A stretch of 38,479 nt of DNA, from IMG/VR virus record IMGVR_UViG_2880372215_000012; one strand, 5' to 3'. The DNA is from a virus (Duplodnaviria > Heunggongvirae > Uroviricota > Caudoviricetes). The position numbers and the translations under genes were made by a program. Shown piece by piece: positions 15,001 to 21,765 of the stretch. Every line of letters starts with the position of its first letter. Position 1 is the first letter of the stretch. The notes beneath the pieces are model-generated. The model was not told the DNA's origin and did no database searches. It saw nothing but the letters and a program-made list of their open reading frames with translations.

Positions 15001-15107
15001 GCATCGCTGGCTGCACCATTCAGAAGGTTTTTGATACGGGGAATTTCATTTTTAAACTCTGCCGCATCAATCCCCAAATCAATGACCAGGTTGGCTATCT
15101 GGTCCAT
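12042..15107 (-). CDS. H: Tail tape measure protein H
   Basis: Start taken at MDQIANLVIDLGIDAAEF (lambda MAEPVGDLVVDLSLDAARF); C-terminus ..NNDGTNGQIGPAALKAVYD..RDGG matches the lambda gpH C-terminus; coiled-coil-rich middle. Confidence 0.9.
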   Translation of the reverse strand: MDQIANLVIDLGIDAAEFKNEIPRIKNLLNGAASDAERSSARMQRFMERQTQAARQTMQAASSAATAASVHAQTVEKSAQAHERMAREVEQTRQRMEALSQKMREEQAQAMALAEAQDKAAAAFYRQIDSVKQAGAGLQELQRIQQQIRQARNSGGIGQQDYLALISEVTAKTRVLTQAEEEATRQKVAFIRQLKEQATRQNLSSSELLRAKAAQLGVSSAAEVYIRKMEQAGKATHSLGLKSAAARQEIGVLIGELARGNLGALRGSGITLANRAGWIDTLMSPKGMMPGAVIGGIAAAVYGLGKAWYDGQKEGEEFNRQLSLTGHYAGVTAGQLWTLSRAISGNGITQHAAAGALAQVVGSGAFRGNDIGMVARAAAQMERSVGQSVSDTINQFKRLKDDPVNAAKALDNELHFLTATQLEQIRVLGEQGRSSDAARIAMSALAEETGRRTADIDNNLNALGSTLKYLSDLWSRFWDAAMNIGREDSLDEQIAALQEKVSRAKRLPWTASSSQVEYDQQRLNDLQEKKRQKDLQDAKEQAERNYQEQQKRRNAENAALNRMNETEAARHQREIARINAMQYADQAVRDAAIQRENERYEKALASGKKKTRETRNDEATRLLLQYSQQQAQVEGQIAAARQSAGIATERMTEARKQLLALQQRISDLDGKKLTADEKSVLARKDELIQALTLLDVKQQELQKQTALNELKKKTIQLTSQLAEEERAQRQQHDLDIATVGMGDQQRQRYQVQLSLRQKYQQQLEQLRRDSEQKGTYNTDDYRKAEQALTESLNRQLNENRRYWQQLEVVQGNWKNGVLRAFQDFTVDADNTAETAEQVFSSAFSNMGNGLATFVTTGKLNFKSFTSSVLSDMAKILAQATMMKSIKGIGSVLGFDLSSLSLNANGGIYQSADLSRYSGTVVNRPTFFAFAKGAGVMGEAGPEAILPLRRGADGKLGVVADIGGSGMAMFSPQYNIEINNDGTNGQIGPAALKAVYDLGKKAAADFMQQQARDGGRLSGAYR

Positions 15108-15422
15108 AACGCACACCTCCGGAAATACCTTCCCCAAGATGCATCAGTTCTTCGTCCGTTCGCTCCGGTATCCCGTTCTCTTCCGGTAAAAGGCTGAAAT
15201 CAGCCACCGCAGCATCACTGCTACCGGACACCATTCTCACGATCAATGCCTTCAGCGAGGCAAACTGCGCATCCATCCACACATCACTGAAGCTCTGCAT
15301 CCGGAAATAATCGCCCCACTCACCAAGCTCAGTGGCCGACATTTCCGACAGCATCCGCCGCCAGTCTGCCCGCCGGAACTCCCGGGCAAGCCGCATGACA
15401 AACTGCATTTCCCGCGTCAGGA
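15079..15422 (-). CDS. T: T-frame segment of the tail assembly chaperone G-T, reached by a programmed -1 frameshift from G
   Basis: ORF in the -1 frame relative to G, open from just upstream of the G stop; conserved G/GT arrangement of lambdoid tail operons. Confidence 0.7.
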
Positions 15423-15803
15423 CTTTTCCGGCGTCAGCACCTCATGCTCCAAATCCCCGGCATTCTCAATGGCTCCCATACCGCTCAGCGACAGAACCAT
15501 CTCCGCCCCCGCTCCCAGGGCATCATACGACCATGTTGTAATAACGGATGCGCAAAGCGTCTCAACATCCTGAGACTGTTCCGCATTCCACAGTGAGCGG
15601 GAAACCAGCCAAGCATTGATATCCATCCCCATCCGCAGAAAAGCAATCTGTCGTTCAGCCTCCGGCAGTTCTCCCTCTTCGGCATCAAACTTTGCCGTTC
15701 GCTGCTGAACAAACGCCAGATATTCAATTCTCTGCAGCCCGGACAGCTCACTGAGCACCACGGACTGCTTTTCATAATTAAACGTGCCCTGTTTCAGAAA
15801 CAT
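15417..15803 (-). CDS. G: Tail assembly chaperone G
   Basis: Position between V and T/H; N-terminus MFLKQ..SVVLSELSGLQRIEYLA resembles lambda gpG. Start could equally be 15806 or 15845. Confidence 0.8.
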   Translation of the reverse strand: MFLKQGTFNYEKQSVVLSELSGLQRIEYLAFVQQRTAKFDAEEGELPEAERQIAFLRMGMDINAWLVSRSLWNAEQSQDVETLCASVITTWSYDALGAGAEMVLSLSGMGAIENAGDLEHEVLTPEKS

Positions 15804-15863
15804 CATGTTCTCCACCTGCAAAAAAGCCCCGGATAACCGGGGCAAATGATGAGTATCGTCCTG

Positions 15864-16607
15864 TTAACCTGCAGCGCTGACAGTCACCGCAGCCACAGCC
15901 ACAAAATTCCCGTCAGCGGTCATGCCCACAATGCTGACGCTGCCCTGCTTCACGCCTTTCACCGTGGCCACAAGTCCGTTCAGGGTCACAGTGGCTGTCT
16001 GTGGATCTGTCGAATGCACACTGATCGCTTTGTCACTGGCTCCGTCAGGTTTTACTGTAAAGGTCAGCGTGGTGGTTGCTCCCACATTGACACTGGCGGA
16101 TGCCGGTGCCACCGTCAGCCCGGTAACGCCCACAGTTTCAGTGCCCTCCTCTGCCAGATATGGACGCCCCACACCGCTGATTTTCACTGTGCGGGTCATC
16201 ACGTCTTTTGAGGCAATGGTTTTACCCAGTGAGCTCAGCCAGCCGCGGAAAACATCAACAGTGCCGTTGGGATATTTGATACGAAACGCGCAGACTTCAC
16301 CGGAGTCGAACAACTGAACCAGTTTTTTCTGCCCGCTGTCACCCGGACGCCAGGCCAGCGTCGCCGAAGTATCACCAACGGATTTCTGCCCCTGGGTTGT
16401 CGTTTTCCAGTCTGCATCTTCATCATCGAGATAAGTGTCATCTTCTGCATCAGCGGTCATTTCGCCAGGTTGCAGATCCTTCACCATCGCAAGACGCAGC
16501 CAGTCAGTGTCCGACAAAGGGTTCGCAAACGCATCGCCGTTGCCGGTATACATCCAGAACGTCGTCCCCGCACCTTTCGTCTTTGCCAGTGGATTTGGCG
16601 TGGTCAT
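15864..16607 (-). CDS. V: Major tail protein V with C-terminal Ig-like domain
   Basis: MTTPNPLAKTKGAGTTFWMY..YLDDEDADW..VDVFRGW.. matches lambda gpV; Ig-like C-terminal domain. Confidence 0.9.
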   Translation of the reverse strand: MTTPNPLAKTKGAGTTFWMYTGNGDAFANPLSDTDWLRLAMVKDLQPGEMTADAEDDTYLDDEDADWKTTTQGQKSVGDTSATLAWRPGDSGQKKLVQLFDSGEVCAFRIKYPNGTVDVFRGWLSSLGKTIASKDVMTRTVKISGVGRPYLAEEGTETVGVTGLTVAPASASVNVGATTTLTFTVKPDGASDKAISVHSTDPQTATVTLNGLVATVKGVKQGSVSIVGMTADGNFVAVAAVTVSAAG

Positions 16608-18283: not shown

Positions 18284-20242
18284 TTACGCCGTACATTTCA
18301 CCAGACCGCGGTGATCAACTGGCGCGACACCGGCGTCAATACGCACTTTCGTTGTCACGCCATCCACACTGAAGCCCTCCATCTGATCAATATATGGCGT
18401 ATCCACACCGTTGAGATAAGCCACTTCAATCGTATCGGAGCCTTTTGACGCAGCCAGGTAGAAGGTGGTCTGGCTGTTATCATCAAGACGAGGCTCTGCA
18501 ATAACGGTCGCAAAATCTTTCACCGGGTTAATAATACCGGCGTTAATGTCAGCCCCCTTGACACTTGAGGAGCGAATGACCTGGTTAGCAACAGACTCCA
18601 TCGCCGTCGGTACCAGTACGAACGCAGGACGAATATTCAGATGACGCTCCCCCTCTTTCTGAACGCGCATCAACTGGCGGGCTTTATCCAGCGATGCCAC
18701 GTCCATTGCAGCGCTCTCCAGTACGTTTGCATGTTTCGCTTTATCGAACAGACTTACATTATCTGTGGAGATTTTCGGGTTAGACGTCAGAATGGCATAA
18801 ACCAGATCGGCAATAGTGGATTTCGCCGCACGGCCCAGTTTCATCGGGACATCGGTCAGCATATTCAGATCATCATTGATAATGGCCTGACGGGTGATAC
18901 TGAACAGCTCGCCATAGGTCGCCAGTGCAATAGTGGCCTGTTTATCTCCGGTGGTGACGTATTTATATTCCGCCCCTTCACGCACCTGACGCAGAGCACT
19001 GAAGCCCCCCATACCCACACGATGGGCAATTTTAAAATCAGACAACTGACCTTTCCGCGTCCACTGTTCATAGGTTTCAGGGGCATCTTCCCAGCCCTGC
19101 AGAATGGCTTTGTTCGCAACATCCAGCAGAATATTACCGAAGTCAGACGTACTGTGTGTGAACGCCGCACCGACCATCTGCATCGGGTTATAACTGGAAA
19201 CCCCAATACCCCGTTCAGTCAGTGACATACGGGCATATTCACGCAGGGTCATCCCGTTGTAGACATTATCACGTTCGGTTTTTTCAAATCCGGCACGCGC
19301 CATCAGCGCCTGGCGGATCCCATCCCCCACAAAATTACCGTTTCCGGCATAAATATGAGCCGGGGTATTTTTATTAGATGGCGTGGACTCGCGCCCCATC
19401 TCGTTCAACAGCTTTTCGCGGGCCTGCTCCAGCGAACATTCAGGATCGGCAAGACACTGAGCCTGCAGCGTCTGATAACGCCCGCCAAACATGGCAAACA
19501 GATCATTAATACCGTTTACACGCGCTTTTTGCTCTGCCAGTACCTGCGCACGGATACTGTTTTCATCCACCACAGGTGCTGCTGCCTGCACTGGCGTCCG
19601 GGAGGCTGCAGGTCCATCATCCTGTACGCGTGGAGCACTGTTGCGTGGCGGAGTAATCATGTTTCGAATGGATTCCGGCATCTTTTTAAATTCCTCTGTA
19701 CGTTTTGACTGAATACATGCCATTGCCTTAACGGCTGGCGTCACCTGATCAGCAAATCCATGTGCCAGACATTCGGCACCGGACATCCAGGTCTCATCCG
19801 CCAGCATGGCAGCAATTTCATCGGTGGTTTTCCCGGTTTTCTGTGCATAAGCGGGTAACAGAACCGCCTCAACTTTATCGAGCAGGTCGGCATAGGTGCG
19901 CATGTCCTCCGCATCACCGCCCGTAAAGCCAAATGGTTTATGAATCATCATGAAGGAGTTTTCCGGCATAATGACCGGTTTTCCCACCATCGCAATGACC
20001 GACGCCATTGACGCCGCCACACCGTCGACATAAACGGTAATGGACGCACCATGTGTTTTCAGTGCATTAAAAATGGCGATGCCTTCAAAGACATCGCCAC
20101 CCGGTGAATTGATATTGAGATTAATGTGGGTGATATCGCCCAGTGCATTCAGATCACTGATAAACTGCTTCGCTGTAACACCCCAGAAACCAATCTCGTC
20201 ATAAATATAAATATCCGCGTCACTCTGGTGACCAGCCTGCAT
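18284..20242 (-). CDS. Prohead protease (ClpP/S14-like) fused to an HK97-fold major capsid protein
   Basis: N-terminal region ..DIYIYDEIGFWGV..NSPGGDVFEG..ASMASVIA..MIHKP.. is ClpP-like; the C-terminal ~350 aa is capsid-like; lies between portal and head completion genes. The exact start is uncertain (taken at MQAGHQSDADIYIY). Confidence 0.8.
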   Translation of the reverse strand: MQAGHQSDADIYIYDEIGFWGVTAKQFISDLNALGDITHINLNINSPGGDVFEGIAIFNALKTHGASITVYVDGVAASMASVIAMVGKPVIMPENSFMMIHKPFGFTGGDAEDMRTYADLLDKVEAVLLPAYAQKTGKTTDEIAAMLADETWMSGAECLAHGFADQVTPAVKAMACIQSKRTEEFKKMPESIRNMITPPRNSAPRVQDDGPAASRTPVQAAAPVVDENSIRAQVLAEQKARVNGINDLFAMFGGRYQTLQAQCLADPECSLEQAREKLLNEMGRESTPSNKNTPAHIYAGNGNFVGDGIRQALMARAGFEKTERDNVYNGMTLREYARMSLTERGIGVSSYNPMQMVGAAFTHSTSDFGNILLDVANKAILQGWEDAPETYEQWTRKGQLSDFKIAHRVGMGGFSALRQVREGAEYKYVTTGDKQATIALATYGELFSITRQAIINDDLNMLTDVPMKLGRAAKSTIADLVYAILTSNPKISTDNVSLFDKAKHANVLESAAMDVASLDKARQLMRVQKEGERHLNIRPAFVLVPTAMESVANQVIRSSSVKGADINAGIINPVKDFATVIAEPRLDDNSQTTFYLAASKGSDTIEVAYLNGVDTPYIDQMEGFSVDGVTTKVRIDAGVAPVDHRGLVKCTA

Positions 20243-20255
20243 CCTGAACCAGGAA

Positions 20256-21765
20256 TTATTCTTCGGACTGGTCGTCGGTGTGCTGCGGCTCCTGTCGTTT
20301 CGTTGCGGCACTGCTGCCTCCTTTATCACTGGCCGGATCGGTATCAAATACCAGATCCAGCTTGCGGTTTTCATCAATTTCGGCCTTGCGCCGACGTTTG
20401 ACATCATCCGGATTACGACCACCTGCACGTACCCAGTCTGATTCTGTCGCTGCTCCACCACGAATCTGAATTTTCCAGGCCTCAGCCTCCTTAACAGGGT
20501 CAATCCACGGCATCACCGGTCCGGAATACACCGCGGTATACAGTGAAGAACGGTCAAGATCGCGGGGTAGCCTGATAACACCGGATGCCACAGCCTGTTT
20601 CAGCCAGGCACGATACATCGGGCGGGTGACGGCACCAATAAACCAGTCCTGCAGGATCAGGTAGCCATCAGTGGATTCAACCAGCTCCTGACGCTGGGCG
20701 CTGTAAGTGCCGTTATAGTTGCGCGCTGTACTGGAAAAAATTCAGACGACTGCCCGCCGCCACGGCACGCAACTGACCATTACGAAAAGTTTCAAGGTTA
20801 GGATTGGGGCGATCCGACTTCACCATTCCGATTTCTTCGCCGGGTTTCAGATCGTCGTAAATAATGCCTGGCTGAATGGTAAGCTCGCGTTCCTTATCCT
20901 TGCTGCCATTACCATCCGGTTCATAGCTCTGCCCATCGCCTTTCCGGATGTACATCCCCAGAGCAGCGGCGATCCTTGCTGCAGTCAGCTCAGAATCCTC
21001 ATACTCTTTCAGGGCACTGAGGCGGATCAGCACACCGGACAACAAAGACGTCCCGCGCATCTGGTGCAGACGGCGAACAAATTTAAGATGCAGCATTCGC
21101 TCTGCATCCACTTCTTTGGTTTCCATCTGCCGTCCGGATACGGGACGGCTTTTATACACCAGATATTTTTCGGGACGCCCCCAGTCATCAACAAACACGC
21201 CCTGATTCAGCCTGTTGCTCTCATCACTGGTCATGGGAATAAAGTCTGGCTCGAGCGCCTCCAGCCAGAAATGAACACCGGCAGAAGGCGTCAGGCTGTT
21301 TATGCGCCCGGAAACCATCTGGGCAAACACCTCACCATCGCGCAGCCAGGTACGCAGCATCAGACGTTCCAGCATCGGACGGGTAAACTGCCCGGTGACT
21401 TCCGGACTGACAGACCATTCACTCCATCGGGTGCGTATCTCCGCTGCCAGATCACGGGCAATGGCCCCATTGCGTAATACCGGATGTGGCTCGACAATAA
21501 TCCCGTTTTTCCCCACCACCCGTTCTTCCAGCTTGTCAAATACACCAATAACCAGATCGTGGTTGTTATCAAGGTAACGGGCCTGCTCACGTAACGACAC
21601 GGCCCCGTACTGGCTTAACTGGTCGGCAGTTCGGTTTTCCCGCCGGGCTTTGTGTGTCCGCGTCGTTTTTACGGCCTCATAAGCCTGGATCACCGCACGG
21701 GAACGCAGCCTTGCCGCTTTCCATCCTGGTGAAAAAACGCCAATCACATCATCAAGAATTGCCAT
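20256..21765 (-). pseudogene. Portal protein gene interrupted by a frameshift at an A6/T6 homopolymer (20735..20740)
   Basis: N-terminal ORF 20713..21765 ends ..SRLNFFQYSAQL*, while the downstream frame continues ..IFSSTARNYNGTYSAQRQELVES..MYRAWLKQ.. to 20256. Removing one A from the run joins the two into a ~500-aa portal. Confidence 0.7.

What the first reader, a model, noticed from the sequence alone, without database searches (positions are those of the whole stretch)
15405..15445. G-T programmed frameshift region with a non-canonical slippery sequence
The T frame is -1 relative to G and is open from 15441 down to 15079; the G stop is at 15417..15419. The only A-rich slip candidate between the T-frame and G-frame stops is CCGGAAAAG (complement at about 15423..15431), not lambda's GGGAAAG heptamer. 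The G/GT arrangement is conserved but the slip site appears to differ.
Basis: partly seen in the sequence, partly recalled or inferred. Interest (0 to 1): 0.4.

Follow-up and report, generated by a model that had tools for sequence, protein, structure and literature searches.

The report
Known N15-type G-T frameshift site
This prophage makes its long tail-assembly chaperone (GT) by a -1 ribosomal slip on GGAAAAG rather than lambda's GGGAAAG, but the same heptamer is already annotated as the slip site in phage N15 and was the commonest form in a survey of lambda-like tail gene clusters in enterobacteria, so it is ordinary.

Summary
On the minus strand, G (Pfam PF06894) stops at TGA 15419-15417. 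The T frame (PF06223) is -1 and open from 15441 to 15079. The 25-nt overlap, G GTG CTG ACG CCG GAA AAG TCC TGA, has no canonical X_XXY_YYZ. The only shift-prone motif is in-phase G_GAA_AAG (15429-15423).

It aligns exactly with lambda's G_GGA_AAG and differs by one base. It is not a new variant. GenBank AF064539 (phage N15) labels these seven bases "slippery sequence for -1 translational frameshift". Among 53 distinct lambda-like G-T junctions, falling into 23 protein clusters from many enterobacterial genera, 42 carry G_GAA_AAG. All three of its synonymous positions are fixed while neighbouring third positions vary freely.

The likely mechanism is tandem slippage. tRNA-Lys moves from AAG to AAA, and tRNA-Glu moves from GAA to GGA with a central G·U pair. 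The product would be a 242-aa GT fusion with the junction ...TPEK|VLTREMQF.... I found no conserved stimulator.

Two points remain of modest interest. This heptamer was used in vitro as a poorly slippery control. Databases annotate T as a stand-alone gene, and the fused product is absent from a 15-billion-protein collection. Nothing was tested experimentally.

The parts
15417..15806 (-). Gene G, tail assembly chaperone. Start is ATG 15806 or the adjacent ATG 15803 that NCBI's PGAP annotation pipeline uses; stop is TGA 15419-15417; 129 or 128 aa.
   Evidence: Pfam PF06894 E 1.8e-39. PGAP name 'phage tail assembly chaperone G'. Moderate Shine-Dalgarno-like (SD) match, -7.0 kcal/mol.
15423..15429 (-). 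Shift heptamer G_GAA_AAG (GGAAAAG). GAA sits in the P site and AAG in the A site; after the -1 slip the tRNAs face GGA and AAA.
   Evidence: Only slip-prone in-phase motif in the overlap. Aligns with lambda G_GGA_AAG. Identical to the N15 annotated slippery sequence. Present in 42 of 53 distinct junctions. Synonymous positions fixed.
15442..15444 (-). TGA in the T frame: the 5' limit of the region where a -1 shift can give a GT product.
15417..15419 (-). G stop codon TGA, 3 nt after the heptamer: the 3' limit of the shift region.
   Evidence: TCCTGA follows the heptamer in 53 of 54 close-clade variants.
15079..15423 (-). T-frame part of GT. The first codon, GTC 15423-15421, re-reads the G of AAG; stop is TGA 15081-15079. 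Predicted GT is 242 aa with junction ...LTPEK|VLTREMQFVMRLAREF...
   Evidence: Pfam PF06223 E 5e-15. Fusion built and aligned end to end with lambda, Gifsy and Fels GT.
15438..15443 (-). SD-like GAGGTG, 8 nt upstream of the heptamer. A possible but unproven stimulator.
   Evidence: -9.2 kcal/mol against the anti-SD, in the top 3% of control positions. It is polymorphic (GAGGTG 36, GAGGCG 18) and the family as a whole shows no enrichment (p=0.14).

Best explanation
A small fraction of ribosomes translating G shift back one base on G_GAA_AAG (15429-15423). The proposed state has tRNA-Glu on GAA in the P site and tRNA-Lys on AAG in the A site. tRNA-Lys re-pairs perfectly with AAA. tRNA-Glu re-pairs with GGA through G-C, a central G·U, and A-U. 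Translation then continues in the T frame (GTC CTG ACG...), skips the G stop 3 nt downstream, and yields a 242-aa GT fusion. Most ribosomes terminate and yield G. By analogy with lambda, G and the G part of GT coat the tape measure protein while the T part recruits the tail tube protein, so the G:GT ratio is set by slip efficiency. Shown here: the anatomy, the homology of the site, and its nucleotide-level conservation. Inferred: that the shift occurs, that both tRNAs slip, and its efficiency. A low level, at or below lambda's ~4%, is expected because no stimulator was found.
For: 1. G (PF06894) and T (PF06223) lie between the tail tube and tape measure genes. T is -1 with a 25-nt overlap.
2. 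The slip-site Lys is invariant in the GT alignment, and TPEK|V aligns with lambda SAGK|V.
3. The N15 record marks GGAAAAG as the slippery sequence.
4. The same in-phase heptamer occurs in 42 of 53 distinct junctions from Salmonella, Citrobacter, Kosakonia, Kluyvera, Enterobacter, Providencia, Sodalis and others, at 36-66% protein identity.
5. Across 23 clusters, heptamer position 1 (a G-frame third position after Pro, Ala, Leu, Thr, Val or Met codons) is G in 22, against a 34% background. Glu is GAA in 18 of 18 against 57%. Lys is AAG in 20 of 23 against 35%. Neighbouring third positions have 1.2-2.0 bits of entropy. A fixed position 1 matters only if the P-site tRNA re-pairs, which favours tandem slippage.
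6. The T 'start' ATG 15408 has no usable SD (-4.3 kcal/mol, spacing 0, against -13.3 for H and -14.5 for V). It is replaced by CTG or CTT in Gifsy-1, Gifsy-2 and Fels-1.
7. A_AAG is the most shift-prone tetramer in E. coli (PMC4066793). G_GA is a recognised non-canonical X_XX class (PMC5009743). Re-pairing of tRNA-Glu from GAA to GGA through G:U has been proposed for mycobacteriophage chaperone sites (PMC10885494).
Against: There is no experimental evidence for this locus or, as far as I could find, for this heptamer in vivo. In a reconstituted E. coli system, AUG GAA AAG (G_GAA_AAG) was the 'unfavourable for slippage' control and gave mainly 0-frame product (PMC6924986). An A_AAG tetramer without a stimulator was barely above background (about 0.15%; PMC4066793). 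I found no conserved stimulator: downstream folding z-scores were -1.09, +0.38 and +0.36, the covariation term was unfavourable, and an upstream SD-like element is not enriched across the family. The conservation counts come from related sequences, so the binomial contrasts overstate independence.
Confidence: 0.75

Rival explanations
1. The site and product are the same, but only tRNA-Lys slips (AAG to AAA). This would be single-tRNA or 'hexanucleotide' GAA_AAG frameshifting, as at CGA_AAG in B. subtilis cdd and IS1222. The preceding GAA would matter only through the wobble behaviour of its tRNA.
For: A_AAG alone supports -1 shifting in E. coli, and its efficiency depends on the 5' codon's tRNA (PMC5009743; PMC4066793). 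The family tolerates a middle-position mismatch in the P-site codon: G_GAA, G_GCA and G_GGA all occur.
Against: Heptamer position 1 is G in 22 of 23 clusters although it is a synonymous third position after six different amino acids. A single-tRNA slip does not need that base. Tetramers shift about ten-fold less than heptamers.
Confidence: 0.15
2. T is an independent gene translated from its own ATG at 15408, as annotated in GenBank and RefSeq records. No frameshift is needed.
For: mEp460, Tritos and PGAP records annotate a 109-aa T starting at this ATG. That protein is recorded on at least 1000 contigs. The ATG is present in all 54 close-clade variants.
Against: There is no usable SD. The ATG is absent in Gifsy-1, Gifsy-2 and Fels-1, whose T frames nonetheless align from the heptamer onward. 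The heptamer's synonymous conservation is unexplained under this model. Lambda gpT exists only as gpGT (PMC5009743).
Confidence: 0.07
3. The frame change is made at the RNA or DNA level (transcriptional slippage on the A run), or T is a decaying remnant that is not expressed.
For: None specific. The heptamer contains a run of four A.
Against: From established knowledge, four A is far shorter than the homopolymer runs known to give transcriptional slippage. T is intact, matches PF06223 and is conserved across genera. The region occurs in 1847 of 5426 complete E. coli genomes.
Confidence: 0.03

Closest known systems
Phage N15 genes 14/15 (GenBank AF064539)
   Same: The heptamer GGAAAAG is identical, in the same phase (GCG GAA AAG) and at the homologous place in a G-like/T-like pair. 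The record labels it 'slippery sequence for -1 translational frameshift'.
   Different: Only about 36% protein identity. In N15 the G stop is 15 nt after the heptamer, here 3 nt. N15 has a predicted 7-bp stem starting 4 nt downstream (z -3.5) that this window lacks.
Phage lambda G/GT frameshift at G_GGA_AAG
   Same: Same gene order V-G-T-H, same Pfam families, same -1 direction, and the same aligned Lys codon. Both give Gly-Lys-Val in the -1 frame. Efficiency in lambda is about 4% (PMC3296357).
   Different: One base differs (GGG to GGA in the -1 frame), so the P-site tRNA is tRNA-Glu re-pairing with a central G·U rather than tRNA-Gly re-pairing cognately. The overlap is 25 nt against 64 nt.
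Gifsy-1, Gifsy-2 and Fels-1 prophage G/T (Salmonella)
   Same: CCGGAAAAG followed by TCC or CCC and then TGA is identical at only 67-70% nucleotide identity overall. The Gifsy-1 and Gifsy-2 records describe T as made by translational frameshifting.
   Different: They have no ATG at the T 'start', and the T-frame upstream stop lies 6 nt further 5'.
Hexanucleotide -1 frameshifting at CGA_AAG (B. subtilis cdd, IS1222)
   Same: An A_AAG A-site slip with a P-site codon that cannot re-pair cognately (PMC5009743).
   Different: Those sites rely on stimulators (per and my recollection). Here position 1 is conserved, pointing to partial P-site re-pairing, and no stimulator was found.
G_GA-type heptamers of RNA viruses (e.g. 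pea enation mosaic virus G_GAU_UUU_UGG_UAG)
   Same: X_XX is G_GA, and there is a 0-frame stop exactly 3 nt after the heptamer. In the pea virus that stop matters for efficiency (PMC5009743).
   Different: Those sites are read by eukaryotic ribosomes, have a different A-site codon, and use 3' RNA structures. The stop-codon effect has not been tested here.

Membership tests
Lambda-like G/GT tail assembly chaperone with programmed -1 frameshift | Two overlapping ORFs between the major tail (tube) gene and the tape measure gene | tested here: met
   The tube gene (PF16461), G, T and the tape measure gene (PF06791, PF09718) are consecutive on the minus strand.
Lambda-like G/GT tail assembly chaperone with programmed -1 frameshift | Sequence homology to gpG and gpT | tested here: met
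   PF06894 E 1.8e-39 and PF06223 E 5e-15. About 35% identity to lambda GT over the full length.
Lambda-like G/GT tail assembly chaperone with programmed -1 frameshift | Downstream ORF in the -1 frame, open across the G stop | tested here: met
   The T frame is open 15441-15082 and the overlap is 25 nt.
Lambda-like G/GT tail assembly chaperone with programmed -1 frameshift | Canonical X_XXY_YYZ heptamer in phase within the overlap | tested here: not met
   No in-phase heptamer of that form is present; the motif is G_GAA_AAG. This is a feature of lambda itself rather than of the family: 42 of 53 junctions lack it.
Lambda-like G/GT tail assembly chaperone with programmed -1 frameshift | Detectable GT fusion protein at a low ratio to G | not testable with these tools
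   Needs expression with immunoblot or mass spectrometry.
N15-type G_GAA_AAG shift site | GGAAAAG in the phase G_GAA_AAG at the position aligned with the lambda slip site | tested here: met
N15-type G_GAA_AAG shift site | Nucleotide-level conservation beyond what the protein requires | tested here: met
   Position 1 is G in 22 of 23 clusters; GAA 18 of 18; AAG 20 of 23. Flanking third positions are variable. Caveat: the sequences are related.
Stimulated bacterial -1 frameshift signals (dnaX or IS3 type) | Conserved upstream SD-like element and/or downstream hairpin or pseudoknot | tested here: not met
   Family-wide SD enrichment p=0.14. Window downstream folding z -1.09, +0.38 and +0.36. No covariation support. 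The window's own GAGGTG is strong but polymorphic.

The most novel reading that the evidence does not exclude
G_GAA_AAG, and more broadly G_GNA_AAR with a mismatched middle base in the P-site codon, is the predominant and strongly selected G-T shift site of enterobacterial lambdoid phages. Yet the same heptamer behaves as a poor slip site in a purified E. coli system. One possibility is that these phages use a stimulator not yet recognised, such as the 0-frame stop 0 or 3 nt downstream (as in pea enation mosaic virus), the nascent acidic G tail, or E-site context. Another is that they work at a much lower GT:G ratio than lambda. Both slipping tRNAs (Glu and Lys) carry mnm5s2U34, so such sites could be doubly sensitive to the host tRNA thiolation pathway that tunes lambda's G:GT ratio.
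Probability: 0.2. Interest if true: 0.45.

Novelty: already known. Interest (0 to 1): 0.2.

Why it matters
The main value is for annotation. This G-T pair, at 95% nucleotide identity or more, is present in about a third of complete E. coli genomes (1847 of 5426). In every record I inspected, T is annotated as a stand-alone 109-aa gene. The predicted 241- and 242-aa GT fusions are absent from a 15-billion-protein collection. Frameshift finders that search only for X_XXY_YYZ will miss most enterobacterial lambda-like chaperone shifts.

There is also a small mechanistic point. A heptamer used as a 'non-slippery' control in vitro appears to be a naturally selected shift site. That gives a ready natural test case for models of P-site mismatch tolerance. 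It is not a new kind of system.

Tried and rejected
1. Canonical heptamer: I looked for one anywhere in the overlap and found none. GGGAAAT at 15413-15407 lies after the G stop and out of phase, so it is irrelevant.
2. Downstream stimulatory structure: 50-nt and 90-nt folds gave z +0.38 and -1.09. RNAalifold on five relatives gave an unfavourable covariation term. The mean z over 23 cluster representatives was -0.44. Rejected for this window.
3. The N15-type stem CGCCAGU/ACUGGCG forms only 4 of 7 pairs here. It has almost no compensatory changes in any group, because its 3' arm encodes the conserved KLA motif.
4. Upstream SD-like stimulator: strong in this window but polymorphic, and not enriched across the family. 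Left as unproven.
5. Independent initiation of T: rejected on the missing SD and the non-conserved ATG.
6. Transcriptional slippage: rejected because the A run is only four bases.
7. Literature: full-text searches found no open paper naming GGAAAAG as a phage slip site. Xu et al. 2004 (Mol Cell) and Licznar et al. 2003 (EMBO J), which probably tabulate it or measure GAA_AAG, are not held. The precedent therefore rests on the GenBank N15 annotation, not on a paper I could read.
8. Existing annotation of the fusion: an exact look-up of the predicted GT sequence found nothing.

Full report
**What is in the sequence**

The window is a cdtI/mEp460/Ayreon-type lambdoid phage or prophage, with its morphogenesis genes on the minus strand. 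Around the finding, the order is:
- a lambda-type tail tube gene with an Ig-like domain (15864-16607; PF16461, PF02368);
- a GC-rich terminator-like hairpin (15843-15826);
- G (15806 or 15803 to 15417; PF06894, E 1.8e-39);
- the T frame (PF06223, E 5e-15);
- the tape measure gene, starting at ATG 15107.

Read on the minus strand, G ends ...CAT GAG GTG CTG ACG CCG GAA AAG TCC TGA, with TGA at 15419-15417. The T frame is one base back. It is closed by TGA at 15444-15442 and open from 15441 to the stop at 15081-15079. Every coordinate in the finding is correct.

A -1 shift can only be productive within the 25 nt between the two stops. None of the six in-phase heptamers there has the X_XXY_YYZ form. 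The only shift-prone motif is G_GAA_AAG at 15429-15423. From shuffles of the window, an in-phase copy inside that short region has a chance probability of about 4e-4.

**Is it the homologue of lambda's site?**

Yes. I built the predicted GT fusions for the window, Gifsy-1, Gifsy-2, Fels-1 and lambda and aligned them.
- The Lys of the slip site is invariant.
- TPEK|V in the window aligns with SAGK|V in lambda.
- In the -1 frame both encode Gly-Lys-Val: GGA AAA GTC here and GGG AAA GTG in lambda.
- The two heptamers differ by a single base.

**Is it selected, or a lineage accident?**

Gifsy-1, Gifsy-2 and Fels-1 are only 67-70% identical to the window at the nucleotide level. They still keep CCGGAAAAG followed by TCC or CCC and then TGA, with diverged flanks.

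I then scanned one genome per bacterial species with the GT alignment and added phage records. This gave 66 loci and 53 distinct junction sequences:

| In-phase heptamer | Junctions | Where found |
|---|---|---|
| G_GAA_AAG | 42 | Escherichia, Salmonella, Citrobacter, Kosakonia, Kluyvera, Leclercia, Atlantibacter, Enterobacter, Providencia, Sodalis, Phytobacter, Pluralibacter, Symbiopectobacterium and others; phages N15, HK225, mEp213 |
| G_GGA_AAG | 6 | lambda proper and close relatives, one Stx2a phage, an Escherichia albertii prophage, Edwardsiella |
| A_AAA_AAG | 2 | other Stx phages |
| G_GCA_AAA | 2 | Kluyvera, Ewingella |
| G_GGA_AAA | 1 | Providencia |

After collapsing to 23 clusters at 70% GT protein identity:
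- Heptamer position 1 is G in 22 clusters. This base is a G-frame third position following Pro, Ala, Leu, Thr, Val or Met codons. The background frequency of third-position G is 34%.
- Glu is GAA in 18 of 18 clusters, against a 57% background.
- Lys is AAG in 20 of 23 clusters, against a 35% background.
- The five G-frame third positions upstream have 1.2-2.0 bits of entropy.
- A conserved Glu four codons upstream is split GAA 10, GAG 12.

Two caveats apply. My site-finder required an in-phase NNNAAAR, so only positions 1, 2, 3 and 7 are informative. The sequences are related, so the contrasts are not independent trials. Even so, the pattern is what nucleotide-level selection on a shift site looks like.

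A fixed position 1 is needed only if the P-site tRNA re-pairs in the -1 frame. This favours tandem slippage over a Lys-only slip.

Within the close clade, 79 viral contigs gave 54 distinct sequences with 86 of 728 columns variable. The heptamer is invariant there. Over seven bases that alone is not significant.

**Is it new?**

No. GenBank AF064539 (phage N15) carries a misc_feature at 10027-10033 labelled "slippery sequence for -1 translational frameshift". The bases there are GGAAAAG, in the phase GCG GAA AAG. The Gifsy-1 and Gifsy-2 records describe T as part of a frameshift product.

The Atkins et al. 2016 review lists X_XX = G_GA as a recognised intermediate between hexanucleotide and heptanucleotide sites. 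It also lists CGA_AAG-type sites in bacteria (PMC5009743). The PRFect paper lists a 'twofour' motif without spelling it out in the text I read; it presumably means two identical bases followed by four, which GGAAAA fits. It also notes that tRNA-Glu can re-pair from GAA to GGA if G:U is allowed (PMC10885494).

I could not read Xu et al. 2004 or Licznar et al. 2003. Full-text searches found no open paper that names GGAAAAG as a phage slip site.

**Mechanism**

The best reading is a -1 programmed frameshift, with tRNA-Glu on GAA in the P site and tRNA-Lys on AAG in the A site.
- tRNA-Lys moves to AAA. A_AAG is the most shift-prone tetramer in E. coli (PMC4066793).
- tRNA-Glu moves to GGA, pairing through G-C, G·U and A-U.
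- The next codon read is GTC. The G stop is bypassed and a 242-aa GT protein results.

By analogy with lambda, G and GT bind the tape measure protein and the T part recruits the tube protein. The ratio in lambda is about 30:1, or about 4% shifting (PMC5009743; PMC3296357).

T is unlikely to be translated on its own.
- Its ATG (15408) has only a -4.3 kcal/mol SD-like match at zero spacing. H and V score -13.3 and -14.5.
- The ATG is replaced by CTG or CTT in Gifsy-1, Gifsy-2 and Fels-1, whose T frames still align from the heptamer onward.

**What does not fit neatly**

The Rodnina laboratory used exactly AUG GAA AAG as the 'unfavourable for slippage' control next to G GGA AAG, and saw mainly 0-frame product (PMC6924986). 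A_AAG without a stimulator is barely above background in vivo, about 0.15%, against 5.6% with a pseudoknot (PMC4066793).

I therefore looked for stimulators.
- Downstream folding of the window is unremarkable: z -1.09, +0.38 and +0.36. An alignment fold has an unfavourable covariation term.
- The window has GAGGTG 8 nt upstream of the heptamer. It pairs at -9.2 kcal/mol with the anti-SD, in the top 3% of control positions. It is polymorphic, though (GAGGTG 36, GAGGCG 18).
- The family as a whole shows no SD enrichment (p=0.14).
- The G stop lies 3 nt after the heptamer here and in 14 other junctions, 0 nt after in five, and 15 nt after in the N15/lambda type. In pea enation mosaic virus a stop 3 nt after G_GAU_UUU matters for efficiency. 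That is only an analogy.

So either the site works at a low level without help, or a stimulator remains unrecognised. Both slipping tRNAs carry mnm5s2U34. Given the lambda result of Maynard et al., I infer but did not test that this site may be particularly sensitive to the host thiolation pathway.

**Annotation consequence**

The region occurs at 95% nucleotide identity or more in 1847 of 5426 complete E. coli genomes. PGAP and phage records annotate G and a 109-aa T separately. The 109-aa T is recorded on at least 1000 contigs. The predicted 241- and 242-aa GT fusions are not in a 15-billion-protein collection.

**Verdict**

This is a member of an already recognised and, in my survey, predominant shift-site variant of the lambda-like G/GT system. 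It is not a novelty. Interest is low (0.2). The residual interest lies in the contrast with in-vitro slipperiness and in the systematic mis-annotation.

Noticed in passing
window 15826-15843 (minus strand): A 7-bp all-GC hairpin followed by TTTTTT lies between the tail tube gene and G. The homologous element is annotated as a rho-independent terminator in the mEp460, Ayreon and N15 records. It could lower G, T and H transcription relative to the tube protein.
   Followed up: partly
window 15079-15408 (minus strand); RefSeq locus L163: T is annotated everywhere as a stand-alone 109-aa protein starting at ATG 15408. Ayreon even calls a shorter ORF from 15342. That ATG lacks a usable Shine-Dalgarno match and is specific to this clade. 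The fused GT sequence is absent from a 15-billion-protein collection.
   Followed up: yes
window 15407-15413 (minus strand): GGGAAAT lies just after the G stop and resembles lambda's GGGAAAG. It is past the stop and phased GGG AAA in the G frame, so it cannot serve as the shift site. It could mislead motif scanners.
   Followed up: yes
loci L016, L018 (G_GCA_AAA TAG), L046 (G_GGA_AAA TAG), L029, L062 (G_GAA_AAG TAG), L160, L162 (A_AAA_AAG): Other heptamer variants occupy the same aligned site. In five junctions the G stop (TAG) directly abuts the heptamer. The family consensus is G_GNA_AAR, so the middle base of the P-site codon is the tolerant position.
   Followed up: partly
loci L157 (N15), L017, L020-L025, L031, L159: 4 nt after the heptamer: A possible 7-bp stem CGCCAGU...ACUGGCG with a 20-nt loop encloses the G stop in the N15/lambda-type junctions (N15 z -3.5). 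It has almost no compensatory changes, because the 3' arm encodes the conserved KLA motif. It forms only 4 of 7 pairs in this window.
   Followed up: partly
loci L048-L054, L056-L060 (genome-contig hits): G-T junction sequences identical to lambda's appear on short, roughly 1x-coverage contigs in assemblies of unrelated bacteria (Neobacillus, Kitasatospora, Chromatium, Shewanella, Leeuwenhoekiella, Pseudomonas and others). This is most likely lambda DNA contamination of the sequencing libraries rather than real prophages.
   Followed up: no
window 15438-15443 (minus strand): The SD-like hexamer upstream of the heptamer is polymorphic within the close clade: GAGGTG in 36 distinct sequences and GAGGCG in 18. 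This changes Val to Ala in G and weakens anti-SD pairing from -9.2 to -5.6 kcal/mol.
   Followed up: partly
window 18284-20503 (minus strand): A 739-aa ORF lies in the head-gene region. Related phage records name a 'ClpP protease-like/scaffold protein' or 'head maturation protease' for genes under the same long match. I did not check which record feature corresponds to this ORF, and did not examine it further.
   Followed up: no
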